A model generated the notes under the pieces. It did not search any database, was not told the origin of the DNA, and saw only the letters and a list, made by a program, of their open reading frames with translations. From Acidobacteriota bacterium (lineage in GTDB: Bacteria; Acidobacteriota; Vicinamibacteria; Marinacidobacterales; Marinacidobacteraceae), in the NCBI GenBank assembly GCA_009835985.1, contig VXWI01000115.1, forward strand, positions 11,145-75,144: a stretch of DNA of 64,000 bases. Direction: 5' to 3'. The position numbers were made by a program, and so were the translations under genes. Positions 38,841-53,787 of the stretch are shown piece after piece (position 1 is the stretch's first letter; each line of letters starts with the position of its first letter).

Positions 38841-39938
38841 CTAAAGGCCCCCTTCGCAGACCCCGTCCTCGATGTCGAGGATCATGTCCTCGACGTCCGC
38901 GGCCCGCGAGTCGCCTCCGGCCAGGCGCATGAACGCCCTGAAGTAGCGCTCTGCGGTGTTGCACTGGCCGCGATTGAAGGCGATCACGCCGAGGGAGTAG
39001 TTCGCATCCCGGGCGTTCGGGTTGTTGGGGTCCGCCTGGAGCGCCGCGCCGTAGTGGCGCATCATGCCGTTCTCATCGGTGCTGCGTCCCGCGATGAACC
39101 CGAGCATCCAATGGACCTCGGTGGCGTACTGCCCTTCCGGCGCCGCTTCGAGATACTTGTTCAACCGCTCGGCAGCCGAGTCGAACTCCTGGGCGTTGTA
39201 GGCGAGTTGGCCGGCCAGGAAGAGAACCTGCGGCAACTGCGGGATGTCCGGGTTCAGGGCGATCACGGCTGCGAAGGACTCTTCGGCGCCCGCATCGTCG
39301 TCCTCCTGCAGCAGCGCGTACCCAAGCCGGAAATACGCCTCCGCGTCCGTCGGATCGGCTTCGGCGACCTGCCGCAGCAGGGGGATCGCGGCCGCGCGGT
39401 CACCCATCTCGCTCTTGGCGATCGCGACGTTGCGGCGCGCCATGGTGATCTGCTCGCCGAGCTGGGCGGCCATCTCCGGATTCGCATCGGCGGCAGCGAG
39501 GAACTCCTCGAAGGAACCGATGGCCTCGGTCGCGCTTCCCGTCCCCTGATGGGCGAAGCCCAGGAAGAGGTGGGCGACGAAGAAGTCGGGAGTCGTGGCG
39601 AGGATTGCCGGGCAGGCGGTGAGGGTCGTGTCCCAGGCGCCGGACTGCGCCGACTCGACGCACTGCTGCTGGTTCTGGTAGTTGATCGTGGTGTGGGCGT
39701 ACTCCACGTTCTGCTGGTAGAACTCGTACGCAGGATCGCTCTCGTCGTGGGTGGAGAGCAGCGGCTCACAGGCCGCGATGACGTCTTCCCAGACCTGGCT
39801 CTCGATGGCCGCCTCGCAAACTTCGCCCGGATCCTCCTGCAACAGCGCTGGCGGAGCGGCGGCGGAAAGCGCGAGAGCGGGGAAGGCGAGCGTTGCAACG
39901 AGCAGAAGCGGGAGTCCGATGTTGCTCCGGAGTGACAT
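38841..39938 (-). CDS. Secreted TPR-repeat protein, paralogue 1 of 3.
   Basis: GAGGAGG RBS. Signal peptide MSLRSNIGLPLLLVATLAFPALALSAA. TPR-like helices. Conserved Cys pairs near the N-terminus and a C-terminal ...GVCEGGL. Confidence 0.7.
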   Translation of the reverse strand: MSLRSNIGLPLLLVATLAFPALALSAAAPPALLQEDPGEVCEAAIESQVWEDVIAACEPLLSTHDESDPAYEFYQQNVEYAHTTINYQNQQQCVESAQSGAWDTTLTACPAILATTPDFFVAHLFLGFAHQGTGSATEAIGSFEEFLAAADANPEMAAQLGEQITMARRNVAIAKSEMGDRAAAIPLLRQVAEADPTDAEAYFRLGYALLQEDDDAGAEESFAAVIALNPDIPQLPQVLFLAGQLAYNAQEFDSAAERLNKYLEAAPEGQYATEVHWMLGFIAGRSTDENGMMRHYGAALQADPNNPNARDANYSLGVIAFNRGQCNTAERYFRAFMRLAGGDSRAADVEDMILDIEDGVCEGGL

Positions 39939-40150
39939 GACAAAACCTCCTCGAGGGCGGGCAGGGTGCGACGGCCGGTGAGCGCGGGCCATACCCCCAT
40001 GGTCCCCGTCCCCATTACGGGAACGAAGCAGCCTAGCACAGGCAACGGATGGTGGTGTAAAGGCGAACACAGCGATGGAAAGGCGGGTTGATACTGCAGA
40101 TTCGGAGCCCGCCAGGAACGCCTTCAGGCGGGCCCGCGGGGGTGCCGGGC

Positions 40151-41206
40151 TCAGCCGCCCTCGCAGCCGCCTTCCGCGATCGATGCGAGGATCTCGGTCA
40201 CCTGGGCGGCGTTCGCATGGTCGGGCGCCAGCTCCATGAACGTCTGGTAGTGGGTCTCGGCGTTTCCGCAGTCGTCGCGGTTATAGAAGATGGTGCCGAG
40301 GGCGAAGTTGGCGTCCACGATCCGCGGGTCCCCCGCCGCCGATCCGGAGAGGAAACCCTGGTAGTGGGTGACGGCCCGGTCCTCGTCCGAGCCCTGGAGC
40401 GCCTGCGCCAGCATGAAGTGCGCGTCCGGGACGCCCCGGTCCCCTCCGGCATTCGCCAGGTAGGCGGTCAGCCGGGCGTCGGCCCTGGCGTAGTCGCCGG
40501 CGTTGTAGTTGAGCTGGCCGGCGAGGAACAGGACGCTGGCGATCGGGTTCGGAGCGTTGTCGATCACGACGGAAAACGCCCGCTCGGCGCCCGCGCTATC
40601 GCCCGTCGACAGGAGGGCGACTGCGAGCCGGTAGTGCACCTCAACGTCGGTCCCGCTCGCTCGGGAAGCCGCCTGCAGCAGGGGAATGGCGTCCTGCAGC
40701 GCGCCCGCCCGCGCGTACGCGATGCCGCCGGAGCGCTGGGCGGTGGCGACCTGGTCCGAGAGCTGCGACGCTGCCTCGGAGTTTCCCCGGACTCCATTCA
40801 GGAAGGCGGCGAAATTGACCGCGGTGTTCGCCCAGTCCTCTTTCGTCTGGTGAGCGACGCCGAGGAAGTAGTTCATGATGAACGCCCCGGGGTTCGCCTC
40901 GACCGCCATCTGGCAGTAGGCGATCACGCTGTCCCACTGCTGCGCTTCGAACGCCGGTTGGCACTGGAGGCTGTAGGCGTAGTTCACGGTCTGCGCCCAG
41001 TGGGCGTAGTACGGATGGTCTTCCGGAAGTACCTCGAGTACCTCGGGACACGCCGCCAGGACCTGTTCGTAGTTGGCGCCGTCCACCGCCTGCATGCAGG
41101 CGGCGGCCTTCTGCGGGTCCACATCCTGGGCCGTCGCCTCCTGGGCGCTTCCCATGAGTGCGCCGAATGCGGCGGCTACCGACAGGGCGAGGAATCGGGT
41201 AGGCAT
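40151..41206 (-). CDS. Secreted TPR-repeat protein, paralogue 2 of 3.
   Basis: Signal peptide MPTRFLALSVAAAFGALMGSAQEATA. Same architecture as paralogue 1 (C-terminal ...GGCEGG; shared blocks FLAGQLNYNAGDY, HYQ.F..). Confidence 0.7.
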   Translation of the reverse strand: MPTRFLALSVAAAFGALMGSAQEATAQDVDPQKAAACMQAVDGANYEQVLAACPEVLEVLPEDHPYYAHWAQTVNYAYSLQCQPAFEAQQWDSVIAYCQMAVEANPGAFIMNYFLGVAHQTKEDWANTAVNFAAFLNGVRGNSEAASQLSDQVATAQRSGGIAYARAGALQDAIPLLQAASRASGTDVEVHYRLAVALLSTGDSAGAERAFSVVIDNAPNPIASVLFLAGQLNYNAGDYARADARLTAYLANAGGDRGVPDAHFMLAQALQGSDEDRAVTHYQGFLSGSAAGDPRIVDANFALGTIFYNRDDCGNAETHYQTFMELAPDHANAAQVTEILASIAEGGCEGG

Positions 41207-41292
41207 GACGAATGTCTCCTTGACGGGATGACCGGACGCCCCGTGGCGCGCGCTCTGATGAAGGCGGTCGCGGCCCGTGCGAACGGGGGAAA

Positions 41293-42249
41293 CTAGCATA
41301 GCCCTCGGGGATTCAGCGAATTCCCGGCGGGGGCCGGACACGGCGCGAAACCCTCCTCCAGGTAGCGCCGGACCTCGGAAGCGCGTTCGTGGTCCGGCGC
41401 GATCCGCAGGAAGTCCTCGTAGTGCCGGCGGGCCTGATCGCAGGCCTCCCGGTCGGCCGCGATGGTGCCGAGGAAGTAGTGCGCGACCGCAGCGCGGGGA
41501 CTCTCCGGTTCGACCGCGAGGAGCGCGGCGAAGTGGTTCCGCGCCTCGTCGTCGGCGCCGGGGTCCGCCGTCTCGGACTCCGACCTCCTCAGCGCGATGG
41601 AGCCGGCCATCCAGTGCGCGTCGGCGGCGAAGGGTCCCGCGGGCGCCGCTTCCAGATAGCGGGTGAGGTGGGCGCCCGCCGCTTCGTAGTCCCCCGTTTC
41701 GTAGCGGAGCTGCCCGGCGAAGAAGAGCGCCTGGCTGATCTGGGGGGCTTCCCGGATCACGACCGAAAAGGCCGCCTCCGCCGCCTCGCCGTCACCCCGC
41801 CGCATCAGGCCGACCCCGAGAAGGAAGTGGACCTCGGCGTCGGCCGGATCCGCTTCCGCGGTCCGGTGGAGGAAAGGGAGTGCGGCCTCGAGGTCTCCCG
41901 CGCGGAACCACGCCAGCCCGGCGCTCCGCGCTGCGATCCCGAGTTGCTCGTCCGGTCGCGGAACGTCCTCGGGCAGGTCCTCGACCGCGGCGAGGAAGGA
42001 CTGGAACGCGGCGCCGGCCTCGGTCCATTCCTGCCTCGCCTGGTAGGCGAAACCCAGGAAGTAGTGGATGCCGTAGGTGTCGGGGGATTCCCGGATCGCT
42101 TCCTCGCAGACTGTGACGGCGGCGTCCCAGTCGGACGCCTGCGCGGCTGCCTCGCACTCCCCAACGGCGTCCGAGTCCGGCTGCGCCGGCTGCGCGAACA
42201 GGGGACCCGCCGCGAGGAGGCACGCGGTGCTCCACCCGGGAAGCGCCAT
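41293..42249 (-). CDS. Secreted TPR-repeat protein, paralogue 3 of 3.
   Basis: Signal peptide MALPGWSTACLLAAGPLFAQP. Shared blocks (ALFFAGQLRYETGDYEAAGAHLTRYLEAAP; HYFLGTIAADREACDQARRHYEDFLRIAPDHE) with paralogues 1 and 2. Confidence 0.7.
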   Translation of the reverse strand: MALPGWSTACLLAAGPLFAQPAQPDSDAVGECEAAAQASDWDAAVTVCEEAIRESPDTYGIHYFLGFAYQARQEWTEAGAAFQSFLAAVEDLPEDVPRPDEQLGIAARSAGLAWFRAGDLEAALPFLHRTAEADPADAEVHFLLGVGLMRRGDGEAAEAAFSVVIREAPQISQALFFAGQLRYETGDYEAAGAHLTRYLEAAPAGPFAADAHWMAGSIALRRSESETADPGADDEARNHFAALLAVEPESPRAAVAHYFLGTIAADREACDQARRHYEDFLRIAPDHERASEVRRYLEEGFAPCPAPAGNSLNPRGLC

Positions 42250-42283
42250 GAGACCGCCGCCCAAACGACGGCGGGGCTGGCTC

Positions 42284-42628
42284 CTAGCGAGCCCGCGATT
42301 CACTGGAGGACGAGGAGGTCTTACCGCTGCTTGCCGTTGCCGGCTTGGCTCCCGAACCCTCCTTCCCCTGCGGCTTTCCGGAGTCCGATTTCTCCGGTCC
42401 GCCCTTTGCCGCCGATCCGTTCTTCCCGCCCGCAGCCTTGTCGCCGTTCTTCCTCGCGTAGTCGGTCACGTACCAGCCGCTTCCCAGGAACTGGATGGCC
42501 GGGCTGGAGACGATCCGGCGGGCGGCTCCGCCGCAGAGCCGGCAGACGTCGAGCGGCGCGTCACTGATGCGCTGGATGGCCTCGAACACCTGATCGCAGT
42601 CGTCGCAGCGGTATTCGTAGATGGGCAT
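42284..42628 (-). CDS. FmdB-family zinc-ribbon protein with Lys/Gly/Ser-rich tail.
   Basis: MPIYEYRCDDCDQVFEAIQRISDAPLDVCRLCGG matches the CxxC-N17-CxxC FmdB zinc ribbon. Confidence 0.7.
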   Translation of the reverse strand: MPIYEYRCDDCDQVFEAIQRISDAPLDVCRLCGGAARRIVSSPAIQFLGSGWYVTDYARKNGDKAAGGKNGSAAKGGPEKSDSGKPQGKEGSGAKPATASSGKTSSSSSESRAR

Positions 42629-42689: not shown

Positions 42690-44264
42690 CTACGGCGTCA
42701 CGGGAGGGGTGGTTGGCGGCGGTTTCCGGTGACCGGTCGCCTGCTCGTAGGCGTACGAGATCCGGAACAGCGCGCCCTCGCCGAGGGCGTTCCCCAGGAG
42801 CTGGAGTCCACCCGGAAGTCCTGACGGAGTGAAGCCCATGGGAACGGTGACCGCCGGAAACCCGGTGGGAGGGGAGAGCTGGGGCGAGTTGTTTCCGTCG
42901 GGCGTGGTCAGGTCGCCCAGGAGCCGCGGGGGGTTGCTCCAGGTGGGGAAGGCAAGCGCGTCGAGGTCCTCGGCTTCGAACAGGCCCCCGACCTCGGCCC
43001 GCAGTTCACCGGCGCGCCGGTTCGCTTCGGCGCAGACGTCGTCCGGCTCGCCTTCGACTTCGAGGGCGGTCTCGAGTCGTGGCCGGATCGACGGGTGGAA
43101 GTCGCCGCCCTCCACCAGGTCCTCGAGCGTCGTCACCGGGGCGTTCGGTCCCAGGCTTGCCAGATAGGCCTCGAGCTGGGCGCGGAAGGGGTTGCACCAC
43201 AGCGATCCCTCGGCTTCGAGCCCCTCGATCCGCACCGGGTCCACGACGGTGACCCCCAGCGCCTCGAGTTCGGCGAGGGCCGCTTCGAAGAGCGCCGAGA
43301 TGTCGGCATCCGCGGTCTCGGTGTCGCTGAGCTGGCGGACGACACCGATCCGGAACTCGGTGAGCGGGCCCGCGTCGAGGTACTGGAGGTAGTCGCCCTC
43401 GCGCTCGAACCCCTCCGTCGCCTCGTCGGCTGGGTCCGGCCCCGCCAGCACGTCGAAGATCCGCACGCCGTCTTCCACGGTGCGCGCCATCGGGCCGCCG
43501 ATGTCCCGGAAGAGATTGAGCGGCACGATCCCGTCGCGACTCGTCAGGCCCATCGTGGACCGGATGCCGAAGAGGGCGTTGTGGGACGAAGGCCCGCGGA
43601 TGGAGTTGCCGGTGTCCGTCCCGAGGCCCACGGCCCCGAAGCTCGCGGCCACCGCGGCTCCGGTGCCTCCGGAGGATCCCGCGGGTACCCGATAGGGGTC
43701 GTAGGGATTCCTGACGTGACCCGGAATGACCGAGCCGAGGCTCTGATAGGCGCTGAAGGCGAACTCGGCCATGTGGGACTTGGCAAGCACGATGGCGCCC
43801 GCTTCCCGGACCCGCTGCACCTGGAAGGCGTCATCCGGCGGGATCGAGTCCGCGAGCGACGCCGATCCGGCGCTCGTGGGAAGGTCCGCGGTGTCGTAGT
43901 TGTCCTTCACGATCATCGGGACGCACTCGAGCGGCCGGTCCGGGCTGAGCCCGGAACCCGCGAGGCGCACGTCGGCTTCGGCGGCCCGCTCCATCGCCCG
44001 CGGATTGACCGTGACGATCGCGTGGAGGGCCGGGCCCTCCCGGTCGTAGGCCTCGATCCGGGCCAGGTAGGCCGCGACCAACTCCGCGCAGGTGAAGTCG
44101 CCGGCCTGAAGACCCCGGTGGATCCCGGCAATATCGAGTTCCACCACCTCGAGACCGGCTGCCGCTTCCGGCGCCGGATCGCCGCAACCGATCATCGCGA
44201 TCGACCCGAGGGTGACCAGGGCGATGCCGCCTTGTTTCCCGACCTTCTCCAATGTCCCGAACAT
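42690..44264 (-). CDS. Amidase-signature family lipoprotein; paralogue of the 28895-30505 amidase.
   Basis: Lipobox LVTLGSIAMIGCG. Amidase-signature block GGSSGGTGAAVAASFGAVGLGTDTGNSIRGP; PMIVKDNYDT. 524 aa. Confidence 0.85.
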   Translation of the reverse strand: MFGTLEKVGKQGGIALVTLGSIAMIGCGDPAPEAAAGLEVVELDIAGIHRGLQAGDFTCAELVAAYLARIEAYDREGPALHAIVTVNPRAMERAAEADVRLAGSGLSPDRPLECVPMIVKDNYDTADLPTSAGSASLADSIPPDDAFQVQRVREAGAIVLAKSHMAEFAFSAYQSLGSVIPGHVRNPYDPYRVPAGSSGGTGAAVAASFGAVGLGTDTGNSIRGPSSHNALFGIRSTMGLTSRDGIVPLNLFRDIGGPMARTVEDGVRIFDVLAGPDPADEATEGFEREGDYLQYLDAGPLTEFRIGVVRQLSDTETADADISALFEAALAELEALGVTVVDPVRIEGLEAEGSLWCNPFRAQLEAYLASLGPNAPVTTLEDLVEGGDFHPSIRPRLETALEVEGEPDDVCAEANRRAGELRAEVGGLFEAEDLDALAFPTWSNPPRLLGDLTTPDGNNSPQLSPPTGFPAVTVPMGFTPSGLPGGLQLLGNALGEGALFRISYAYEQATGHRKPPPTTPPVTP

Positions 44265-44328
44265 GATCCGATTCTATGCGTCCCCTCCGGCATCACGGTC
44301 TTCGCGGGCTGCTAATATCCCGCGCCCC

Positions 44329-44433
44329 ATGACGCTCAGCGAGTCAGCCCGGTCGCGCCAGTCCCGGCAATGGCTGTGGCGATGGCGATTTTGCATTAGG
44401 CCGGGCTCGTCTCGCGTCCGTTCGATCCACTGA
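44329..44433 (+). CDS. Candidate trp-operon leader peptide (34 aa) containing W-L-W-R-W.
   Basis: ATG 44329 ... TGA 44431-44433 gives MTLSESARSRQSRQWLWRWRFCIRPGSSRVRSIH. Three TGG codons fall within five codons, about 135 nt upstream of trpD on the same strand. GC-rich hairpins follow (gggaggcg-N13-cgcctcc). Confidence 0.3.
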   Translation: MTLSESARSRQSRQWLWRWRFCIRPGSSRVRSIH

Positions 44434-44569
44434 TTGCGGCGGGAGGCGGCCCGACCCGGGACGCCTCCGGACGACGGCGCGAGAGGGTGCTTGAGGGCGC
44501 CCGCCAAGGCTTCGAGGTTCCCGGTTCGGGACGCGCTGACCGTCACTCACCCACCAAGGAGCCACCACC

Positions 44570-45601
44570 GTGATCGCCCCCCTCCTCGAAACCCTGCTCT
44601 CCGGCGAGGCCGCCGACTCCGGCGCGCTGGAGACCGCTCTCCACCGGATCCTGGCCGGAGAGAGCGACGTCGCCCAGACGGCGGGACTGCTCGTCGCCCT
44701 CAGGATCAACGAGCCCGACGCCGCCACGCTGGCCGCGTGCGCCCGCGCGCTCCGGGGTCACCGGAAGGCCGTCATGTCGCAGGTGCGGCCGCTGGTGGAC
44801 ACCTGCGGAACCGGTGGCGACAAGAGCGGCACCTTCAACATCTCGACGGCCTCGGCGCTCGTGGTCGCGGCCGCCGGCGGTGCGGTCGCCAAACACGGCA
44901 ACCGCAGCGTGTCGTCCATCACCGGCAGCGCCGACGTACTGGAAGCCTGCGGAGCGCCGCTCCACCTCGAGCCCGGTCAGGCGTCCCGGATTCTGGATTC
45001 CACGGGTTTCGTTTTCCTCTTCGCTCCCGCCTTCCACCCCGCCATGGCCCACGTCGGGCCGGCGCGCCGGGCGCTCGGGATCCGCACGCTCTTCAACGTC
45101 CTCGGCCCGCTCGCGAATCCGGCGCTCGCGGATCGTCAGCTGATCGGTGTCTACGACCCGGCCCTGACGGAGACCGTCGCGGGTGCGCTCGCCGAACTCG
45201 GGTCCGCCTCGGCGCTCGTCGTGCACTGCGAGGGGCTGGACGAGATCGGTCTCCACGCCACCACCCGCGGACACGCCCTCAAGGACGGAGAGGTGTCGCC
45301 GGTCGAGATCCGGGTCTCCGAACTCGGACTCCGCGAAGCCTCGATCGAGGACCTGCGGGGTGGCGCCACCTCGCAGAACGCGGAGATCCTGCGCGCCGTG
45401 CTCTCCGGAGAGGAAGAAGGTCCGAAGCGGGACGTGGTCGCCGCGAACGCCGGCGCCGCGCTCACCGTGGCCGGCCTCGCGCCGGACCTGCAGGCCGGCT
45501 TGAAGACCGCGCTGGAGACCCTGGCGTCAGGCCGCGCGCTGCGCACGCTGGAACGCTACGTGGAGACCAGCATGCGGATGACGGGGATGAATGTCGCATG
45601 A
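44570..45601 (+). CDS. trpD: Anthranilate phosphoribosyltransferase.
   Basis: GTG start after aaggag. MIAPLLETLL..., GTGGDKSGTFNISTASALVVAAAG, KHGNRSVSS. Confidence 0.9.
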   Translation: MIAPLLETLLSGEAADSGALETALHRILAGESDVAQTAGLLVALRINEPDAATLAACARALRGHRKAVMSQVRPLVDTCGTGGDKSGTFNISTASALVVAAAGGAVAKHGNRSVSSITGSADVLEACGAPLHLEPGQASRILDSTGFVFLFAPAFHPAMAHVGPARRALGIRTLFNVLGPLANPALADRQLIGVYDPALTETVAGALAELGSASALVVHCEGLDEIGLHATTRGHALKDGEVSPVEIRVSELGLREASIEDLRGGATSQNAEILRAVLSGEEEGPKRDVVAANAGAALTVAGLAPDLQAGLKTALETLASGRALRTLERYVETSMRMTGMNVA

Positions 45602-46374
45602 CCGATCGGGTACTCGAGCGGCTCGTCCGGGCCGCCGAGGCGCGAGCCGAACGACTCGCCGCCGGTCCGGCGCCCGGCGCGCCTGAGCGGCCAGCCCCTT
45701 GCTTCCACACGGCGATCGGCGGGCGGGACGCGCTATCGGTCATCGCCGAGTTCAAACGGAAGAGTCCAAGCGCCGGGGCGATCCGCGACGACGATCCCGG
45801 GGCCCGGGCGCTGGCGTACCGGGAGGCCGGCGCCTCGGCCGTCTCCGTGCTGACCGACCCGGATGCGTTCGGGGGATCTCTGGACGACCTGTCGGCGGCT
45901 TCCGCGGCCGCAGGCCTGCCCATCCTCATGAAGGACTTCATCGTGGACCCGGCGCAGATCCGGGCGGGTTGGGCGGCGGGTGCGTCCGCGGTGCTGCTGA
46001 TCGTCCGCTGCCTGGACGACGCCCGGCTTCGCCAGCTCCATCGGGAGGCGCGGTCGCTCGGGCTCGACGCCCTGGTCGAGGTGCACGACGCGGCGGAGCT
46101 GGATCGCGCCCTTGCGCTCGAGGACGCCATCGTGGGGATCAACAACCGGGACCTGGACACGCTGCGGACGGACCGCGGGCGCGTTCGCGACCTCCTTCCC
46201 CAGGTCCCTTCCGGACGGATCGCGGTCGCCGAGAGCGGATACCTGGAGCCGGAACATCTGACGGAGTTGCGGGGGCGGGCGGACGCGGTGCTCATCGGGA
46301 CGGCGTTGATGCGCGCCGCCGATCCCTCGGCATTCCTCCGGGCCGCGACCGAACCCGTACCGGCCGGCGTCTGA
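45598..46374 (+). CDS. trpC: Indole-3-glycerol phosphate synthase.
   Basis: IAEFKRKSPSAGAI...ASAVSVLTD...GSLDDL, ILMKDFIVDPAQI, GINNRDLDTL. ATGA overlap with the trpD stop. Confidence 0.9.
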   Translation: MTDRVLERLVRAAEARAERLAAGPAPGAPERPAPCFHTAIGGRDALSVIAEFKRKSPSAGAIRDDDPGARALAYREAGASAVSVLTDPDAFGGSLDDLSAASAAAGLPILMKDFIVDPAQIRAGWAAGASAVLLIVRCLDDARLRQLHREARSLGLDALVEVHDAAELDRALALEDAIVGINNRDLDTLRTDRGRVRDLLPQVPSGRIAVAESGYLEPEHLTELRGRADAVLIGTALMRAADPSAFLRAATEPVPAGV

Positions 46375-46386
46375 CCGGCGCGCGTC

Positions 46387-47006
46387 GTGGAGATCAAGAT
46401 CTGCGGCCTCCGCCGCCCGGAGGACGCCCGCCTGGCCGTGCGGCTCGGGGCGCAGTGGATCGGGGTGGTCCGGGCTCCCGACTCCCCGCGCTCGGCAACG
46501 CTCGACGAAGCCCGGCAGGTAATCGCGGCCGCCAGGGAGGTCGATCCGGAGGTGCGCCCGGTGCTCGCGACCGGGAGGCGCACGCGCGACGAGGTCGCCT
46601 CGGACGCGTTTGCGCTGGGGGTGGAACGGGTCCAGCCGCACGGTCTCTCCGAAGCCGGGATCCGAACGCTGACACAAGCCGGCCTGATCGTTCACCGGGT
46701 CGTGACCGTGCCCGAATCCGCGGCCCGGCTTCCGGACTTCGAATCCCCCGCGGAGGATGCCGCGCCGCTCGTATTCGATGTGGGAGGGGGAGGCAGCGGC
46801 CGCGCCTTCGACTGGTGCATTCTGGGGGAGCGGGCTCCGGAACGGGCGTTCATCGCCGGCGGGTTGCGGCCCGAGAACATCGAACGGCTGCTCCCCTACC
46901 GGCCGTGGGGCGTGGATGTCTCGAGCGGGATCGAGTCGTCCCCCGGAGTCAAGGATCCGGAGCGGCTGCAGCGGTTCTTCGACCTGGTGCGGCCGCTGGC
47001 CGTGTC

Positions 47007-47010
<4 letters not shown>
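46387..47010 (+). CDS. trpF: Phosphoribosylanthranilate isomerase.
   Basis: VEIKICGLRRPEDARLAVRLGAQWIGVV..., FIAGGLRPENI. ATGA overlap with the trpB start. Confidence 0.85.
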
Positions 47011-48214
<1,204 letters not shown>

Positions 48215-48218
<4 letters not shown>

Positions 48219-49012
48219 GCCACTCGGCGCTCAGCGCGGTGCTCGCGGACGGCCCGGCCGTCTCACCCTGCCTGGTCCTGGGAGACCCCACCCCGGATCT
48301 GTCGGTCGAAATGGCGCGTGCCGCGGTCGGCGCGGGCGCGCGACTGCTCGAGATCGAATTCCCCTACAGCGATCCGGTGGCCGACGGGCCGGCGATCCAG
48401 GCGGCGGTCCAGCGGTCTCTGGCAGGCGGGACTTCGACCAGCCGGGCGTTCGAGTTGCTGGGGCGGATCGCGGAAACCTGTCCCGGGACGCCGCTGAACC
48501 TCCTGGTCTATGGGAATCTCGTCCACCGGATCGGATACGAATGTTTCGCGGAGCGGGCCGTCGCCGCCGGAGCTTCCACGCTCCTGGTGACCGACATTCC
48601 GCTGGAGGAGTCCGTGCCGCTGCGGCGGGCGTGCCGCCGCGCCGGATTGGGTCACGTGGAACTTGCCGGTCCGCTGACTCCCGCCGCCCGCCTTCAAAGG
48701 CTCGCCGCAGTGTCCTCCTTCGTTTACCTGGCCGGATTCCAGGGCGTGACGGGAGTGCGCCGCGGTGGTTTCGATGCCATGCTTCACCGCGTCGCGGAAG
48801 TAGCCGAGATCGTGGACGTTCCTCTCTGCCTTGGATTCGGGCTCTCTGAAAGGAGCCAGATCGTTCGCGCCTTCGGGGCCGGCGCCGGCATCGCGGTCGT
48901 CGGGAGCCATCTCGTGCGGGTGGTCGGCGACCTCTACCGCACTCCGTCTGATGCGGATCGCCTGCTCTCGGGTTACGGAGCCGCCGTGCGCCGGCTCATC
49001 TCGAACGGGTAG
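48215..49012 (+). CDS. trpA: Tryptophan synthase alpha chain.
   Basis: LLEIEFPYSDPVADGPAIQ, GYECF, FVYLAGFQGVTG. ATGA overlap with the trpB stop. Confidence 0.9.
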
Positions 49013-49032
49013 GGAAGCGAAAGGGACGAACC

Positions 49033-50037
49033 ATGCTGGTCATCATGGGGACGAACCCCACCGAAGAACAATGCGGGCGGGTGGAGACCGCGATCCGTGA
49101 CATGGGTTTCACTCCGCTCCGGGTGCCGGGCGCCGACCGGACCGCGATCTGCGTCACCGGGAACCGGGGGCCGGTGGACCCCTCGTTCCTGATCCGGCTC
49201 CCCGGGGTCGCCCGCTGCATTCCGGTCACCAAGCCGTTCAAGCTGGTCAGCCGCGAGGTCCATCCGGCGGAGACGGTCGTCGAGATCGGCGGGGTGCCGG
49301 TGGGGGGGCCGGAACCCATCGTGATCGCCGGGCCGGGCAGCGTCGAGACCGAGGCCAGGACCCTGGACATCGCCCGTGCGGTGAAGAAGGCGGGCGCTCA
49401 CGCTTTCCGCGCGCGCCTGTGGGCGGAGCGGGTCGGTCCGTATCACTTCGGCGGGGTCGGCGACGAAGGGCTGCACACCCTCGACCGCGTGCGCGAGGAG
49501 ACCGGGCTCCCGGTGATCACGGAGGTCATCGATCCGCGGTCGGCGGAGCAGGTCGCGGAACGCGTCGACTGCGTCCAGATCGCGGCCCGCCACATGGAGA
49601 ACGAAGCGCTTCTGGACGTGGCGTGCCGCCTCGGGAAGCCGGTGATCGTGGAACGCGCGCCGTCGGCGAGCGTCGAGGAGTGGCTGATGGCGGCGGAGTC
49701 CCTGCTGGCCCGGGAGAAGCGGGACGTGATCCTGTGCGAACGGGGAATCCGCACCGGCGGCCAAAGGCGAACTCTGCTTGACCTGCACGTCGTGCCGGTG
49801 GTGCGGCGCATGACCCACCTGCCCGTCCTGGTGGACCCGTCGCGGGCCGTCGAGGAACGGGACCGCGTCCGGCCGCTGGCCCGCGCCGCCCTGGGCGCCG
49901 GCGCTTCGGGCCTGCTGCTCGAGGTACACACACACCCCGACACCGCCTATACCGACCCGATGCAGACGGTGGACATTCCGACCTTCGAGGGCATCCAGCG
50001 CGACCTCGTCAAGATCGGCGAGTTCGAGGCGCTATAA
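49033..50037 (+). CDS. aroF: 3-deoxy-D-arabino-heptulosonate 7-phosphate synthase (type I-beta, Thermotoga-like, with N-terminal regulatory domain).
   Basis: N-terminal ferredoxin-like domain followed by a KDO8P/DAHP synthase barrel (IAGPCSVETEA-like IAGPGSVETEA, RAGAHAFRARLW, PVITEVIDP, LLEVHTHPD). Confidence 0.85.
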   Translation: MLVIMGTNPTEEQCGRVETAIRDMGFTPLRVPGADRTAICVTGNRGPVDPSFLIRLPGVARCIPVTKPFKLVSREVHPAETVVEIGGVPVGGPEPIVIAGPGSVETEARTLDIARAVKKAGAHAFRARLWAERVGPYHFGGVGDEGLHTLDRVREETGLPVITEVIDPRSAEQVAERVDCVQIAARHMENEALLDVACRLGKPVIVERAPSASVEEWLMAAESLLAREKRDVILCERGIRTGGQRRTLLDLHVVPVVRRMTHLPVLVDPSRAVEERDRVRPLARAALGAGASGLLLEVHTHPDTAYTDPMQTVDIPTFEGIQRDLVKIGEFEAL

Positions 50038-51228: not shown

Positions 51229-51783
51229 ATGCCTGATCCCCCGGCCCAACCGGCAGCTCCCAAACCGGCTCCCCGGCGGGCTGCGAGCGCCGCGAAAAAG
51301 GTCACCCGCCGGGAGTTTCCGTTCCTCGCCATCGGCTGGGGCATGTTCACGGCCGCGATGGCGGCCGGCCTGACCGCGGCGGGCCGGTTCATGTTCCCGA
51401 ACGTGCTCACCGAGCCGCCTTCGACCTTCACGGCCGGCTTCCCGGATGACTTCGCCATCGGGGTCGTCGACACCCGTTTCAAGGAGCGCTACCAGGTCTG
51501 GATCGTCCGGGACGAGGAGGGGATCTACGCGCTCTCCACCATCTGCACCCACCTGGGATGCACCCCGAACTGGCTCGAGGCCGAAAGCAAGTTCAAGTGC
51601 CCGTGCCACGGCAGCGGGTTCTACGCCTCCGGGATCAACTTCGAGGGACCGGCGCCCCGGCCGCTGGAGCGCGTCGGGGTGAGTCTCGCGGAGGACGGCC
51701 AGGTCCTCATCGACAAGTCCCGTCTCTTCAAGTTCGAAGCGGGTCAGTGGAACGACCCCGCCTCCTTCCTCTCCCTGACGTAA
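51229..51783 (+). CDS. Rieske [2Fe-2S] subunit of a cytochrome bc/b6f-type complex.
   Basis: N-terminal TM anchor. Rieske boxes CTHLGC and CPCHGS separated by 15 residues. Confidence 0.9.
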
Positions 51784-51802
51784 TCACAAGGCAAGGGGCG
51801 TC

Positions 51803-52603
51803 ATGTTGAACCGCATCCTGGCGCCTCTCTCCGCCGCCTGGAAGGAGGCGACGGACTCGCAGGTCTGGACCTCGATCTTCCGGCACGGCAAGCCGGTCAG
51901 CAACCGGAACCGGGCGCTCGTGATGATGAGCAACGTGTTCCTGCACCTGCATCCGGTGAAGTCCCGGAAGGCGGGAATCAAGCTCCGCTACACCTGGTGC
52001 ATGGGAGGCATCACGTTCTTCCTCTTCCTGGTGCTCACCTTCACCGGGCTGCTCCTGATGTTCTACTACCGGCCCACGGTGGAGTACGCCTACGCGGACA
52101 TCGTGGACCTGCAGGAGCATGTGCCGCTCGGCATCATGCGCGAACTCCACCGCTGGGGCGCCCACGCCATGGTCATCACCGTGTGGCTGCACATGCTGCG
52201 GGTCTTCATGACCGGTTCCTACAAGCCGCCGCGGGAGTTCAACTGGGGCATCGGGGTGGTCCTGCTGGTGCTCACCCTGCTCCTCTCCTTCACCGGCTAC
52301 CTGCTGCCCTGGGACCAGTTGGCGATCTGGGCCATCGCGGTGGGTTCCAACATGGCGCGCGCGACGCCGCTGCTCGGAACGGAAGGGCCGTTATCGGCGT
52401 CCCTCACCCTGGGGGACATCAGCCTCATCAACGCGGGGAACGACGCACGCTTCGCGCTGCTGGGCGCCCGCTCGGTCGGCCAGCCGACGCTCCTCCGCTT
52501 CTACGTCCTCCACTGTGTCGGGTTACCCCTGGCGGCCGCCTTCCTGATGGCGGTGCATTTCTGGCGGGTCCGCAAGGACGGCGGAATCTCGGGGCCGATG
52601 TAG
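51803..52603 (+). CDS. Cytochrome b, N-terminal half (b6-like haem-binding four-helix core).
   Basis: Cytochrome b/b6 N-terminal domain. His ligands in [23 protein letters not shown]... and ...[12 protein letters not shown].... Confidence 0.85.
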
Positions 52604-52655
52604 GTGCGGAATCCACGCTTGAGAGAAGACGCTCCCGCCCCGACCCGTTGAGACC

Positions 52656-53777
52656 GTGATCGACCTCTTCAAGGACCTCGTCAACTGGGCCTCCGGGCCC
52701 ACGGTCCTGTTCACGATCGCGACGCTCGGCCTGTTGGCGGCCTTCCGCTTCACCCAGGTCTGGAGCAAGACCTCGGCGAAGGTGTTCTTCGTCGTCCTCG
52801 CGGTGTTCTACACCGCGAGCATGTGGGACCCCGACTTCTTGCTGATCGTCGCGAAGCCCGACAACATCCCGATCACCGGGGTCATCTTCCTGGTCTTCTT
52901 CTTCACCTGGTTCGCGATGCACCAGGGGATCCAGAACGACCGGCGGAGCGCGGGCGAGGGAGAGGTCCTCGAGAAGCAGGAGTCCGAGAAGGTCTGGGTG
53001 TGGCCCGATCTCGTCTACACCGAGATGCTCGCGATGGTGATTCTCAGCATCGTGCTGCTGGTGTGGTCCATCCTGCTGGCGGCGCCGCTGGAGCAGCCGG
53101 CGAACCCCGCCGATTCGCCGAACCCGTCCAAGGCGCCCTGGTATTTCCTCGGGCTCCAGGAGATGCTGGTCTATTTCGACCCGTGGCTCGCCGGAGTGGT
53201 CTTCCCCACGCTGATCATCGTGGGGCTGATGGCGATTCCCTACATCGACACGAACCCCAAGGGCAACGGGTACTTCACCTTCAAGGAGCGGAAGGCCGAG
53301 ATCGTCATCTTCCTGTTCGGCTTCTTGATCCTCTGGTGCCTGCTGGTCGTCTCGGGCACCTTCCTGCGTGGTCCCAACTGGAACTTCTTCGGCCCCTATG
53401 AGTACTGGGACGTCCACCGGGTGGAGCCGCTGCTCAACGTCAACGTCTCCGACTTCTTCTGGGTGAAGCTGCTCGGGCGTCCCTTGCCGACCGGCGGGTT
53501 CTTCGCCGCGCTCATGCGGGAATGGCTCGGCATCCTGATGGTGGGGGCCTACCTGTTCGTGCTTCCGGTGGTCATGTCGTGGCCGAGGGACAAGTTTCCC
53601 ACCGGGCTCAAGTGGCTGAGCTGCCACCACTACTTCGAAAAGATGGGCGCCACCCGCTACTACCTCGGCGTCAGCCTCTTCCTGATGATGATGAGCCTGC
53701 CGATCAAGATGTATCTGCGGTGGGCCTTCAACCTCAAATACATCGTCGCTTTCCCAGAGATCTTCTTCAACATCTAG
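52656..53777 (+). CDS. Cytochrome b C-terminal domain protein (subunit IV/PetD-like, extended).
   Basis: PWYFLGLQEMLVYFDPWLAGVVFPTLIIVGLMAIPYID matches the cytochrome b6f subunit IV / cytochrome b C-terminal domain. 373 aa with extra TM helices. Encoded separately from the N-terminal half (split cytochrome b). Confidence 0.8.
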   Translation: MIDLFKDLVNWASGPTVLFTIATLGLLAAFRFTQVWSKTSAKVFFVVLAVFYTASMWDPDFLLIVAKPDNIPITGVIFLVFFFTWFAMHQGIQNDRRSAGEGEVLEKQESEKVWVWPDLVYTEMLAMVILSIVLLVWSILLAAPLEQPANPADSPNPSKAPWYFLGLQEMLVYFDPWLAGVVFPTLIIVGLMAIPYIDTNPKGNGYFTFKERKAEIVIFLFGFLILWCLLVVSGTFLRGPNWNFFGPYEYWDVHRVEPLLNVNVSDFFWVKLLGRPLPTGGFFAALMREWLGILMVGAYLFVLPVVMSWPRDKFPTGLKWLSCHHYFEKMGATRYYLGVSLFLMMMSLPIKMYLRWAFNLKYIVAFPEIFFNI

Positions 53778-53787
53778 GCAACCCGCA

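What the first reader, a model, noticed from the sequence alone, without database searches (positions are those of the whole stretch)
44329..44569. Candidate tryptophan-attenuation leader peptide (W-L-W-R-W) upstream of trpDCFBA-aroF
A 34-codon ORF (MTLSESARSRQSRQWLWRWRFCIRPGSSRVRSIH) in the 305-nt leader of the trp cluster has three Trp codons within five positions. Clustered regulatory Trp codons are the hallmark of trpL-type leaders. GC-rich alternative hairpins follow (gggaggcg...cgcctcc; cccggttcggg). The operon here lacks trpE/trpG and ends with a DAHP synthase gene, so its regulation is of interest.
Basis: inference. Interest (0 to 1): 0.5.

Follow-up and report, generated by a model that had tools for sequence, protein, structure and literature searches.

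The report
Tryptophan-sensing leader peptide before trpD
A 34-codon mini-gene with three tryptophan codons lies just upstream of the tryptophan-synthesis operon of an uncultured marine acidobacterium; it very probably senses tryptophan supply through ribosome stalling, a classic mechanism, but here the usual terminator is missing.

Summary
ATG 44329 to TGA 44433 encodes MTLSESARSRQSRQWLWRWRFCIRPGSSRVRSIH, in the 305-nt gap before trpD-C-F-B-A and a DAHP synthase gene.

- **Conservation:** every related Vicinamibacteria locus in which trpD heads the operon has a short ORF with 1-3 Trp codons at this place.
- **Frame:** in 13 of 13 lineages that have a -10-like hexamer, the first ATG/GTG 7-15 nt after it is in frame with an invariant TGG. 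The ORF is therefore probably leaderless.
- **Canonical relatives:** lower-GC relatives, and trpE-led operons in Acidobacteriota and Planctomycetota, carry textbook attenuators (WWW peptide, 1:2, 2:3, 3:4 plus a U tract). These align with the window's leader.
- **Switch:** the window keeps strong, mutually exclusive helices 1:2, 2:3 and 3:4.

It is not a textbook member, however. The 3:4 hairpin is followed by GGACGACGG rather than U's. The ORF runs 10 codons past the ancestral stop. The whole 245-nt leader is far more conserved than trpD synonymous sites. An invariant GGCGAUGGCGA, with rare CGA codons flanking the Trp codon, is unexplained.

How the switch acts on expression (translation, Rho or non-canonical termination) could not be resolved. 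I file it as a new variant of a known kind, of moderate interest.

The parts
44310..44318 (+). Promoter -10-like element, TGc-TAATAT (extended -10 type), ending 10 nt before the leader ATG
   Evidence: Sequence. A TAnnAT hexamer lies 7-11 nt before the leader start codon in nearly all high-GC relatives. The consensus sigma-70 scan found no full -35/-10 match. The transcription start is inferred, not shown.
44329..44433 (+). Leader ORF, 34 codons plus TGA: MTLSESARSRQSRQWLWRWRFCIRPGSSRVRSIH. No Shine-Dalgarno sequence; probably leaderless or with a 5' UTR of a few nt
   Evidence: Orthologous ORFs in relatives. Frame test 13/13.
44371..44385 (+). Trp codon cluster: UGG at 44371, 44377 and 44383 (W15, W17, W19). 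W19 is the one kept in all high-GC lineages
44378..44389 (+). Invariant motif GGCGAUGGCGA(U), which is (GGCGAU)x2 and covers R18(CGA)-W19-R20(CGA). Constrained at nucleotide level; no consistent pairing partner found
   Evidence: Invariant in 22/22 aligned leaders and in new lineages. Unique in the window. CGA is 2.7% of Arg codons. Partner surveys.
44339..44354 (+). Segment 1 (GCGAG-U-CAGCCCGGUC), inside the leader ORF; pairs with segment 2
   Evidence: MFE of free RNA. Duplex -29.7 kcal/mol. 93% of cells paired over 14 sequences, with 2 pairs compensatory.
44399..44421 (+). Segment 2 (GGCCGGGCUCGUCUCGCGUCCGU), inside the ORF 3' of the Trp codons; pairs with either segment 1 or segment 3
   Evidence: 2:3 duplex -33.8 kcal/mol; 98% of cells paired.
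44442..44453 (+). Segment 3, the 5' arm of hairpin A (GGAGGCGGCCCG). Its pairing with segment 2 extends over 44437-44456
44457..44468 (+). Segment 4, the 3' arm of hairpin A (CGGGACGCCUCC). Aligns with the terminator stem of canonical relatives, but is followed by GGACGACGG and has no U tract
   Evidence: 100% of cells paired; alignment with terminators; no terminator-like site.
44485..44502 (+). Hairpin B (GGGUGCU-UGAG-GGCGCCC). The stem is kept through G-U/G-C/A-U changes and the loop varies
44519..44542 (+). Conserved block CCGGUUCGGG...CUGACCG. It folds either as hairpin C (44519-44531) or as C' (44522-28 with 44536-42) and is followed by a C/U-rich tail. Function unknown
   Evidence: In L069/L065/L070 C' is a perfect 8-bp stem, and in L069 it is followed by UUUUUCUU.
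44556..44572 (+). trpD Shine-Dalgarno sequence AAGGAG (44556-61) and GTG start (44570)
44570..50037 (+). The controlled operon: trpD, trpC, trpF, trpB, trpA, and a DAHP synthase (type I-beta with a ferredoxin-like domain)

Best explanation
This is a ribosome-mediated tryptophan attenuator.

Proposed steps:
- Transcription starts a few nucleotides before ATG 44329, so the 34-codon leader ORF is translated without a Shine-Dalgarno sequence (leaderless or nearly so).
- When charged tRNA-Trp is plentiful, the ribosome runs through W15, W17 and W19 to the stop at 44431.
- Behind it, segment 1 (44339-54) pairs with segment 2 (44399-44415). Segments 3 and 4 then form hairpin A (44442-68). This is the OFF fold.
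- When tRNA-Trp is scarce, the ribosome stalls on the UGG codons, which are flanked by rare CGA codons, and keeps segments 1 and 2 apart.
- Segment 2 then pairs with segment 3 (2:3), and hairpin A cannot form. This is the ON fold.

What is shown: the ORF and its in-frame conservation; alignment with canonical attenuators; three strong, mutually exclusive helices; strong purifying selection on the whole leader.

What is inferred: the transcription start, the stalling, and the output.

Hairpin A is followed by GGACGACGG. I therefore think the output is not canonical intrinsic termination. I rank the possible outputs as follows:
- About 0.4: the switch is relayed through the conserved 100 nt downstream to trpD translation initiation.
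- About 0.2: Rho-dependent termination.
- About 0.15: non-canonical termination or pausing at hairpin A.
- The remaining ~0.25 is not assigned to any of these outputs.
For: - **ORF in relatives.** Short ORFs with Trp codons lie upstream of trpD in every related locus where trpD is the first gene: WLWRW, LLWRW, FWRWRF, RRWRF, RWRWRL, RFRWRG and QWWWCV*.
- **Frame test.** In 13 of 13 lineages with a -10-like hexamer, the first ATG/GTG after it is in frame with the invariant TGG. The distances are 36, 42, 45, 54, 57 and 60 nt, and the frame is open.
- **Canonical relatives.** Textbook attenuators occur upstream of trpD in soil Vicinamibacteria, and upstream of trpE in Acidobacteriota and Planctomycetota. 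They have a promoter TTGACG-17-TATAAA, a WWW peptide, a 1:2 helix and a 3:4 helix followed by TTTT. In their consensus structure 7 of 23 pairs are compensatory.
- **Alignment with these.** The window's Trp codons, segment 2 and hairpin A align with the corresponding parts of those attenuators.
- **Switch in the window.** Free RNA up to 44475 folds as 1:2 + 3:4 (-70.7 kcal/mol). With the RNA 5' of a stalled ribosome removed, the MFE is 2:3 (-38.5), and structures containing hairpin A are at least 6 kcal/mol worse.
- **Helix strength.** Duplex energies are 1:2 -29.7, 2:3 -33.8 and 3:4 -27.4 kcal/mol. Non-adjacent segment pairs give -11 to -21.
- **Both folds are kept.** Over 14 sequences, 96.6% (OFF) and 97.8% (ON) of cells are paired, against 31-53% when partners are slid by 1-3 columns.
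- **Selection.** The leader is 88-98% identical where trpD four-fold sites are 48-81% identical.
- **Rare codons.** CGA is 2.7% of Arg codons in the window, yet it flanks W19 on both sides.
Against: - No U tract follows hairpin A, and no terminator-like site lies in 44100-44700. A defining part of the classical mechanism is therefore absent.
- The stop codon lies 16 nt beyond segment 2. A terminating ribosome therefore does not mask segment 2 as it does in E. coli trpL.
- Many relatives keep only one Trp codon.
- The peptide sequence is not conserved. The conservation of GGCGAUGGCGA is at nucleotide level: the first base of the preceding codon is free while its GG is fixed. An RNA or DNA element rather than codons might be what matters.
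- Compensatory changes in the window's own group are few: 2 pairs in 1:2, 1 in 2:3 and 0 in 3:4. The tested structures were derived from the window sequence.
- The fold of the whole leader is no more stable than shuffles (z = -0.27).
- Predicted accessibility of the trpD SD and start differs little between the OFF and ON folds.
Confidence: 0.75

Rival explanations
1. Classical transcription attenuation. Hairpin A is still the terminator and stops RNA polymerase at about 44470-44480 without a U tract, perhaps helped by NusA or NusG.
For: Hairpin A aligns with the terminator stem of canonical relatives. It is the most invariant part of the leader: 27 of 29 positions are invariant. The window shows no excess of hairpin+U-tract sites (15 found against about 23 in shuffles). 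The organism may therefore not rely on canonical terminators.
Against: The RNA after the stem is GGACGACGG, which would form a very stable RNA-DNA hybrid. From general knowledge, intrinsic termination needs a weak U-rich hybrid. High-GC Actinobacteria keep poly-U tracts in their trp attenuators (PMC1262725). None of the roughly 10 high-GC lineages has a U tract at this place.
Confidence: 0.15
2. Same sensor and switch, with Rho-dependent termination as the output. In the OFF fold the invariant linker 44416-44441 and/or the C-rich tract 44531-44556 is exposed as a Rho loading site.
For: Leader peptides without obvious terminators, and a possible role for Rho, have been discussed for mycobacterial cys leaders (PMC1262725). 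The linker is 19/20 invariant and is sequestered only in the 2:3 fold. A C-rich, G-poor stretch precedes the SD.
Against: The candidate sites are short (25-40 nt). No test of Rho binding is possible with these tools. The evidence is purely compositional.
Confidence: 0.2
3. The ORF is not the sensor. The strongly conserved leader, including (GGCGAU)x2, is a structured RNA or a protein-binding site that responds to a ligand or a regulator, and the Trp codons are a relic.
For: The motif is constrained at nucleotide level. The peptide is not conserved. The whole 245 nt is under strong selection. Many lineages have a single Trp codon.
Against: The frame test is 13/13. The start codon sits at a fixed distance from the -10 element. 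The leader aligns with canonical leader-peptide attenuators. No Rfam family matches, there is no T-box motif, and there are no TRAP-type (G/U)AG repeats.
Confidence: 0.08
4. A chance ORF in GC-rich DNA with no function.
For: About 0.03 such Trp clusters are expected in this gap. Stop codons are rare at 69% GC.
Against: Conservation across lineages, the frame test, alignment with canonical attenuators, and purifying selection on the leader.
Confidence: 0.01

Closest known systems
trpL leader-peptide transcription attenuators of Proteobacteria (E. coli trpL) and Actinobacteria (Corynebacterium, Streptomyces)
   Same: A short ORF with clustered Trp codons ahead of trp biosynthetic genes. Three mutually exclusive helices (1:2, 2:3, 3:4). 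The Trp codons sit where a stalled ribosome would prevent the 1:2 pairing.
   Different: No U tract follows 3:4. The stop codon lies beyond segment 2. The ORF is probably leaderless. About 100 nt of further conserved RNA precede the SD. Rfam (including Trp_leader) gives no match. The actinobacterial examples keep poly-U tracts (PMC1262725).
Canonical trp attenuators found here in soil Vicinamibacteria (upstream of trpD) and in Acidobacteriota and Planctomycetota (upstream of trpE); not in Rfam, and I found no description in the searched literature
   Same: They align with the window's leader: the SRQW codons, segment 2 (CGGGCU) and the stem GAGGC(A/G)GCCCG...GGG(U/A)(U/C)GCCUC.
   Different: They have a 16-19-codon peptide ending in WWW-x-x-stop, with the stop codon inside segment 2, and a U tract after 3:4. 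The window has W-L-W-R-W, 10 extra codons and no U tract.
Leaderless polycysteine short ORFs of mycobacteria, which are translational attenuators (bioRxiv 10.1101/834739)
   Same: A leaderless sensory ORF in a high-GC genome, with regulatory codons for the pathway's product and no intrinsic terminator.
   Different: In mycobacteria the Cys tract pairs directly with the SD region of the next gene. Here such pairing (GGCGAU with AUCGCC of trpD) is the best partner in only some lineages. Modelled accessibility changes are small.
Rho-dependent leader-peptide attenuators (E. coli tnaC; Salmonella mgtL), cited from general knowledge
   Same: Leader translation decides the fate of the downstream transcript without an intrinsic terminator.
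   Different: No rut site or boxA could be identified here. tnaC senses free Trp through the nascent peptide and induces a catabolic operon.

Membership tests
Classical leader-peptide (trpL-type) transcription attenuator | A short ORF in the leader of trp biosynthetic genes, on the same strand | tested here: met
   ORF 44329-44433, 136 nt before trpD.
Classical leader-peptide (trpL-type) transcription attenuator | Clustered regulatory Trp codons, conserved in orthologous leaders | tested here: met
   Three UGG in 5 codons. Orthologues have 1-4 UGG, and one is invariant.
Classical leader-peptide (trpL-type) transcription attenuator | The ORF is translated (start codon and frame under selection) | tested here: met
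   In 13 of 13 lineages the promoter-proximal ATG/GTG is in frame with the invariant TGG, at six different distances. Translation itself is not testable here.
Classical leader-peptide (trpL-type) transcription attenuator | Mutually exclusive helices 1:2, 2:3 and 3:4 | tested here: met
   Both folds are kept in 14 sequences, but with few compensatory changes.
Classical leader-peptide (trpL-type) transcription attenuator | The 3:4 helix is an intrinsic terminator: a GC-rich stem followed by a U tract | tested here: not met
   The stem is followed by GGACGACGG, and there is no terminator-like site. This feature is met in the lower-GC relatives.
Classical leader-peptide (trpL-type) transcription attenuator | The stop codon is placed so that a terminating ribosome masks segment 2 | tested here: not met
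   The stop at 44431 is 16 nt beyond the end of the 1:2 partner in segment 2 (44415). In canonical relatives the stop lies inside segment 2.
Classical leader-peptide (trpL-type) transcription attenuator | Read-through responds to charged tRNA-Trp | not testable with these tools
   Needs reporters, RNA 3'-end mapping or ribosome profiling.
Rfam Trp_leader and any other Rfam family | A covariance-model match | tested here: not met
   No relevant hit at E <= 10 in the window or at E <= 1 in 7 related loci.
T-box leader with a Trp specifier | A conserved T-box sequence and a Stem I / specifier-loop architecture | tested here: not met
   No Rfam T-box hit. No GGUGGNACC-type motif.
TRAP-binding trp leader (Bacillus type) | A series of 9-11 (G/U)AG triplets spaced by 2-3 nt | tested here: not met
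   The longest chain found is 1.
Leaderless-sORF translational attenuator (mycobacterial Cys type) | The sensory ORF starts at or next to the transcript's 5' end | tested here: inconclusive
   A -10-like hexamer lies 7-11 nt before the start codon in nearly all high-GC lineages and there is no SD. The transcription start has not been mapped.
Leaderless-sORF translational attenuator (mycobacterial Cys type) | [quoted passage not shown] | tested here: inconclusive
   GGCGAUU:GAUCGCC (-16.4 kcal/mol) is the best partner in the window, L008 and L068, but not in most other lineages. That energy is within the background for GC-rich segments. Accessibility changes are small.

The most novel reading that the evidence does not exclude
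In the high-GC marine and sponge-associated Vicinamibacteria, an ancestral canonical trp transcription attenuator has been rebuilt. The new form is a leaderless, terminator-less attenuator that needs only one Trp codon. That codon is embedded in an invariant (GGCGAU)x2 element with rare CGA codons. The output acts through the 100-nt conserved downstream RNA, by translation or by Rho. The invariant element may in addition be read by a trans-acting factor or a long-range RNA contact.
Probability: 0.3. Interest if true: 0.6.

Novelty: new variant of a known kind. Interest (0 to 1): 0.4.

Why it matters
Leader-peptide attenuation is a textbook mechanism known mainly from Proteobacteria and Actinobacteria. 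This finding and its relatives show a trp attenuator family in Acidobacteriota and Planctomycetota that Rfam does not hold. I found no description of it in the searched literature.

The family offers a natural series, from canonical forms (WWW peptide, U-tract terminator) to a derived form that kept the sensor and the RNA switch but lost the terminator. That series makes a specific question testable: how does an attenuator change its output when genome GC content rises and canonical terminators disappear?

The practical value is for annotating MAGs. The sensory ORF and its leader are unannotated regulatory features of the trp operon.

Tried and rejected
- **Known RNA families.** Rfam scans of the window and of 7 relatives found nothing relevant. 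A T-box motif and TRAP-type triplet repeats are absent.
- **Long helix enclosing hairpin A.** Equilibrium folds favour UCUCGCG paired with CGCGAGA around hairpin A. I rejected it because substitutions in L002, L006, L009, L011 and L012 break it without compensation.
- **5'-3' helix.** Pairing of 44331-40 with 44534-45 appears in the MFE but is not kept in L009-L012.
- **Trp motif pairing directly with the trpD start.** This is the top partner in a few lineages only, which is no more than chance expectation.
- **Chain of helices 4:5 and 5:SD.** The duplex energies (-20.3 and -16.3 kcal/mol) lie within the background for non-adjacent GC-rich segments.
- **SD and start accessibility in forced OFF and ON folds.** The differences are small and inconsistent, and L015 goes the other way.
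- **C' hairpin as the real terminator.** It is convincing only in L069 (an 8-bp stem followed by UUUUUCUU). It is weak in the window, and equilibrium folds do not form it.
- **Linker 44432-39 pairing with CCGUGAUC at the trpD start.** Changes in L009-L013 break it.
- **A second leader before trpE of the same genomes.** There is no trpE in the window. No TrpE from the group A-C chromosomes is among the best 120 homologues.
- **Literature.** Searches found no description of acidobacterial or planctomycete trp attenuators.

Full report
**Observation.** ATG 44329 to TGA 44433 has 34 codons and encodes MTLSESARSRQSRQWLWRWRFCIRPGSSRVRSIH. UGG codons are at 44371, 44377 and 44383. It lies in the 305-nt gap between a divergently transcribed amidase gene (42690-44264, - strand) and trpD (GTG 44570, preceded by AAGGAG). 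The genes that follow are trpC, trpF, trpB, trpA and a type I-beta DAHP synthase with a ferredoxin-like domain.

The window is 69% G+C. Clusters of at least 3 TGG in 5 codons occur 13 times over all six frames. About 0.03 are therefore expected in the + frames of this gap. That is suggestive but not decisive on its own.

**Relatives.** TrpD searches of genome and metagenome collections, followed by look-ups of TrpD homologues, gave 71 loci. Most are Acidobacteriota of the class Vicinamibacteria, including 'Ca. Marinacidobacterium' and sponge MAGs. Some are Planctomycetota. Wherever trpD is the first gene, a short ORF containing Trp lies 100-250 nt upstream:
- Group A (91-97% TrpD identity): WLWRW, LLWRW or RLWRW.
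- L068: DCGRWRF.
- Other high-GC lineages: L014 FWRWRF, L015 RRWRS, L016/L031 DRRWRF, L017 RWRWRL, L018 FRRWRG, L065 FRRWRF, L069 GRRWRF, L070 IRRWRF.
- Four lineages with RFRWR(G/S).
- Eleven lower-GC soil lineages: MFDRARSAASRQWWWCV* and variants.

Where trpG lies directly upstream of trpD there is no leader at that position. Instead a WWW leader sits in front of trpE. Examples are MFDRARSVDSRQWWWCS* in Acidobacteriota and ..YWWWSAD* and ..SWSWWWRS.. in Planctomycetota.

**The ORF is read as codons.** A -10-like hexamer TAnnAT lies 7-11 nt before the start codon in nearly all high-GC lineages. In the window it is TGcTAATAT at 44310-18, 10 nt before the ATG. There is no Shine-Dalgarno sequence. 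Starting from the hexamer, the first ATG/GTG downstream is in frame with the invariant TGG in 13 of 13 lineages. The distances are 36, 42, 45, 54, 57 and 60 nt, and there are no stops. With at least eight independent lineages, the chance of this is roughly (1/3)^8. The arrangement implies a leaderless or nearly leaderless mRNA. This is an inference, because no transcription start has been mapped.

**Canonical relatives and alignment with them.** The soil lineages have a textbook attenuator:
- promoter TTGACG-17-TATAAA;
- a 17-codon WWW peptide;
- helix 1:2 (GCCCGUUCAG with CUGAACGGGC), with the stop codon inside segment 2;
- helix 2:3 (GGGCUGCC with GGCAGCCC);
- helix 3:4 (GAGGCAGCCCG-loop-GGGUUGCCUC) followed by UUUUUCGUU.

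Folding with the 5' part masked flips 3:4 to 2:3. RNAalifold on 13 such leaders from two phyla recovers 1:2 and 3:4, with 7 of 23 pairs compensatory.

In an alignment with these, four things stand out:
- The window's Trp codons, segment 2 (CGGGCU) and hairpin A line up with their counterparts.
- The ancestral stop codon corresponds to AGG (codon 24) in the window.
- The ORF runs on for 10 more codons.
- The U tract is replaced by CGGACGACGG.

**The switch in the window.** Free RNA from 44325 to 44475 folds as 1:2 (44339-54 with 44399-44415) plus hairpin A (44442-68), at -70.7 kcal/mol. If the RNA 5' of the leading edge of a ribosome stalled at W15-W19 is removed, the MFE up to 44470 is 2:3 (44399-44420 with 44437-56), at -38.5 kcal/mol. 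Structures that contain hairpin A are at least 6 kcal/mol worse.

Duplex energies of adjacent segments are -29.7, -33.8 and -27.4 kcal/mol. These stand clear of the -11 to -21 obtained for non-adjacent GC-rich segment pairs. Over 14 sequences, both folds are kept in 96.6% and 97.8% of cells, against 31-53% when partners are slid by 1-3 columns. True compensatory changes are few, and the structures were derived from the window itself.

**What does not fit the textbook.**
- Hairpin A has no U tract, and nothing in 44100-44700 matches a terminator consensus. None of about ten high-GC lineages has a U tract there. High-GC Actinobacteria, by contrast, keep poly-U in their trp attenuators (PMC1262725).
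- The window as a whole has no excess of hairpin+U-tract sites: 15 found against about 23 in shuffles.
- The stop codon lies beyond segment 2.
- Many lineages keep only W19.

**Selection.** Among group A genomes the 245-nt leader is 88-98% identical, while four-fold degenerate sites of trpD are 48-81% identical. The most invariant stretch is 44421-44469.

An 11-mer, GGCGAUGGCGA (44378-88), is invariant in all high-GC leaders, even though those leaders are otherwise unalignable. The codon before it is UGG, CGG, AGG or GGG. Its first base is free while its GG is fixed, so part of the constraint acts on nucleotides. The Arg codon before W19 is always CGA, which is 2.7% of Arg codons in 15 genes of the window. 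Slow decoding next to the sensing codon is one possible reason. I could not find a consistent pairing partner for the motif. It remains unexplained.

**Output.** I tested several ideas:
- Direct pairing of the Trp motif with the trpD start (GGCGAUU with GAUCGCC, -16.4 kcal/mol). This resembles the mycobacterial polycysteine attenuators (10.1101/834739). It is the best partner in the window, L008 and L068 but not generally.
- A relay 4:5 / 5:SD. It has only background-level energies.
- Modelled accessibility of the SD and start in the OFF and ON folds. It changes little: in the window the start region goes from 0.33 to 0.48 and the SD does not change. L015 goes the opposite way.
- The conserved block CCGGUUCGGG..GACCG plus a pyrimidine tail (44519-44552). 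It can form hairpin C or C'. In L069, C' is a perfect stem followed by UUUUUCUU. In the window it is weak, and equilibrium folds do not form it.

The output is therefore unresolved. Because a G/C-rich hybrid follows hairpin A, I rank the options as translational relay (about 0.4), then Rho-dependent termination (about 0.2), then non-canonical termination or pausing at hairpin A (about 0.15).

**Comparison with known systems.** It works like a trpL-type attenuator and is related by descent to canonical ones. It fails two defining features of the classical transcription attenuator: the U-tract terminator and the stop codon within segment 2. It matches no Rfam family. It is not a T-box or TRAP leader. 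It shares the leaderless, terminator-less layout of the mycobacterial Cys attenuators, but the defining RBS sequestration could not be shown. Literature searches found no description of trp attenuators in Acidobacteriota or Planctomycetota.

**Verdict.** The element is a derived variant of a classic mechanism in a little-studied phylum. Its sensor and switch are well supported, while its output and an invariant motif are unexplained. Interest is moderate (0.4).

Noticed in passing
L028:590-736, L035:634-783, L033:621-766; L022:597-722, L024:691-819, L026:592-722, L041:557-684: Canonical trp attenuators (WWW/WWWW leader peptide, 1:2 helix, GAGGCAACCC..GGUUGCCUC stem plus U tract) lie upstream of trpE in Planctomycetota and Acidobacteriota MAGs. 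They share the same stem sequence across the two phyla. No Rfam family matches them.
   Followed up: partly
window 1-60000: Hairpin+U-tract terminator matches are not enriched: 15 found against about 23 expected from shuffles. This genome seems to make little use of canonical intrinsic terminators.
   Followed up: partly
window (whole) and group A-C genomes: There is no trpE or trpG in the 64-kb window. No TrpE from the chromosomes that carry the group A-C trpD loci appears among the best 120 homologues of a Vicinamibacteria TrpE. Whether these genomes have anthranilate synthase at all is open.
   Followed up: partly
window 49033-50037: The last gene of the operon is a type I-beta DAHP synthase with an N-terminal ferredoxin-like regulatory domain (PF00793 + PF18152). 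The first step of the shikimate pathway would thus be co-regulated with the late trp genes.
   Followed up: no
window 38841-42303 (- strand): Three tandem paralogous TPR-repeat proteins with similar C-terminal CxxGG motifs lie just upstream of the amidase gene.
   Followed up: no
window, 13 sites (e.g. 27117, 28833, 39417, 58624): GGCGATGGCGA with one mismatch or fewer occurs 13 times against 5.2 expected (0 of 100 shuffles reach 13). Only the leader copy is exact. I did not check where the one-mismatch copies lie or why they are enriched; a codon-usage effect is one untested possibility.
   Followed up: no
L069:690-740, L017:2975-3010: In two lineages trpD appears to start 12 nt upstream (TTG CCN GAT CCN TTG ATC GC..), which puts the SD 9 nt from that TTG. 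The trpD start is otherwise an invariant (A/G/T)TGATCGCC.
   Followed up: no
L070:2013-2300: An extra 95-residue ORF with no Pfam hit is called between trpD and trpC in one relative.
   Followed up: no
window 51229-56595: A cluster encoding a Rieske protein, a split cytochrome b and a large multi-haem cytochrome c lies downstream of the operon, after a HEAT-repeat protein.
   Followed up: no
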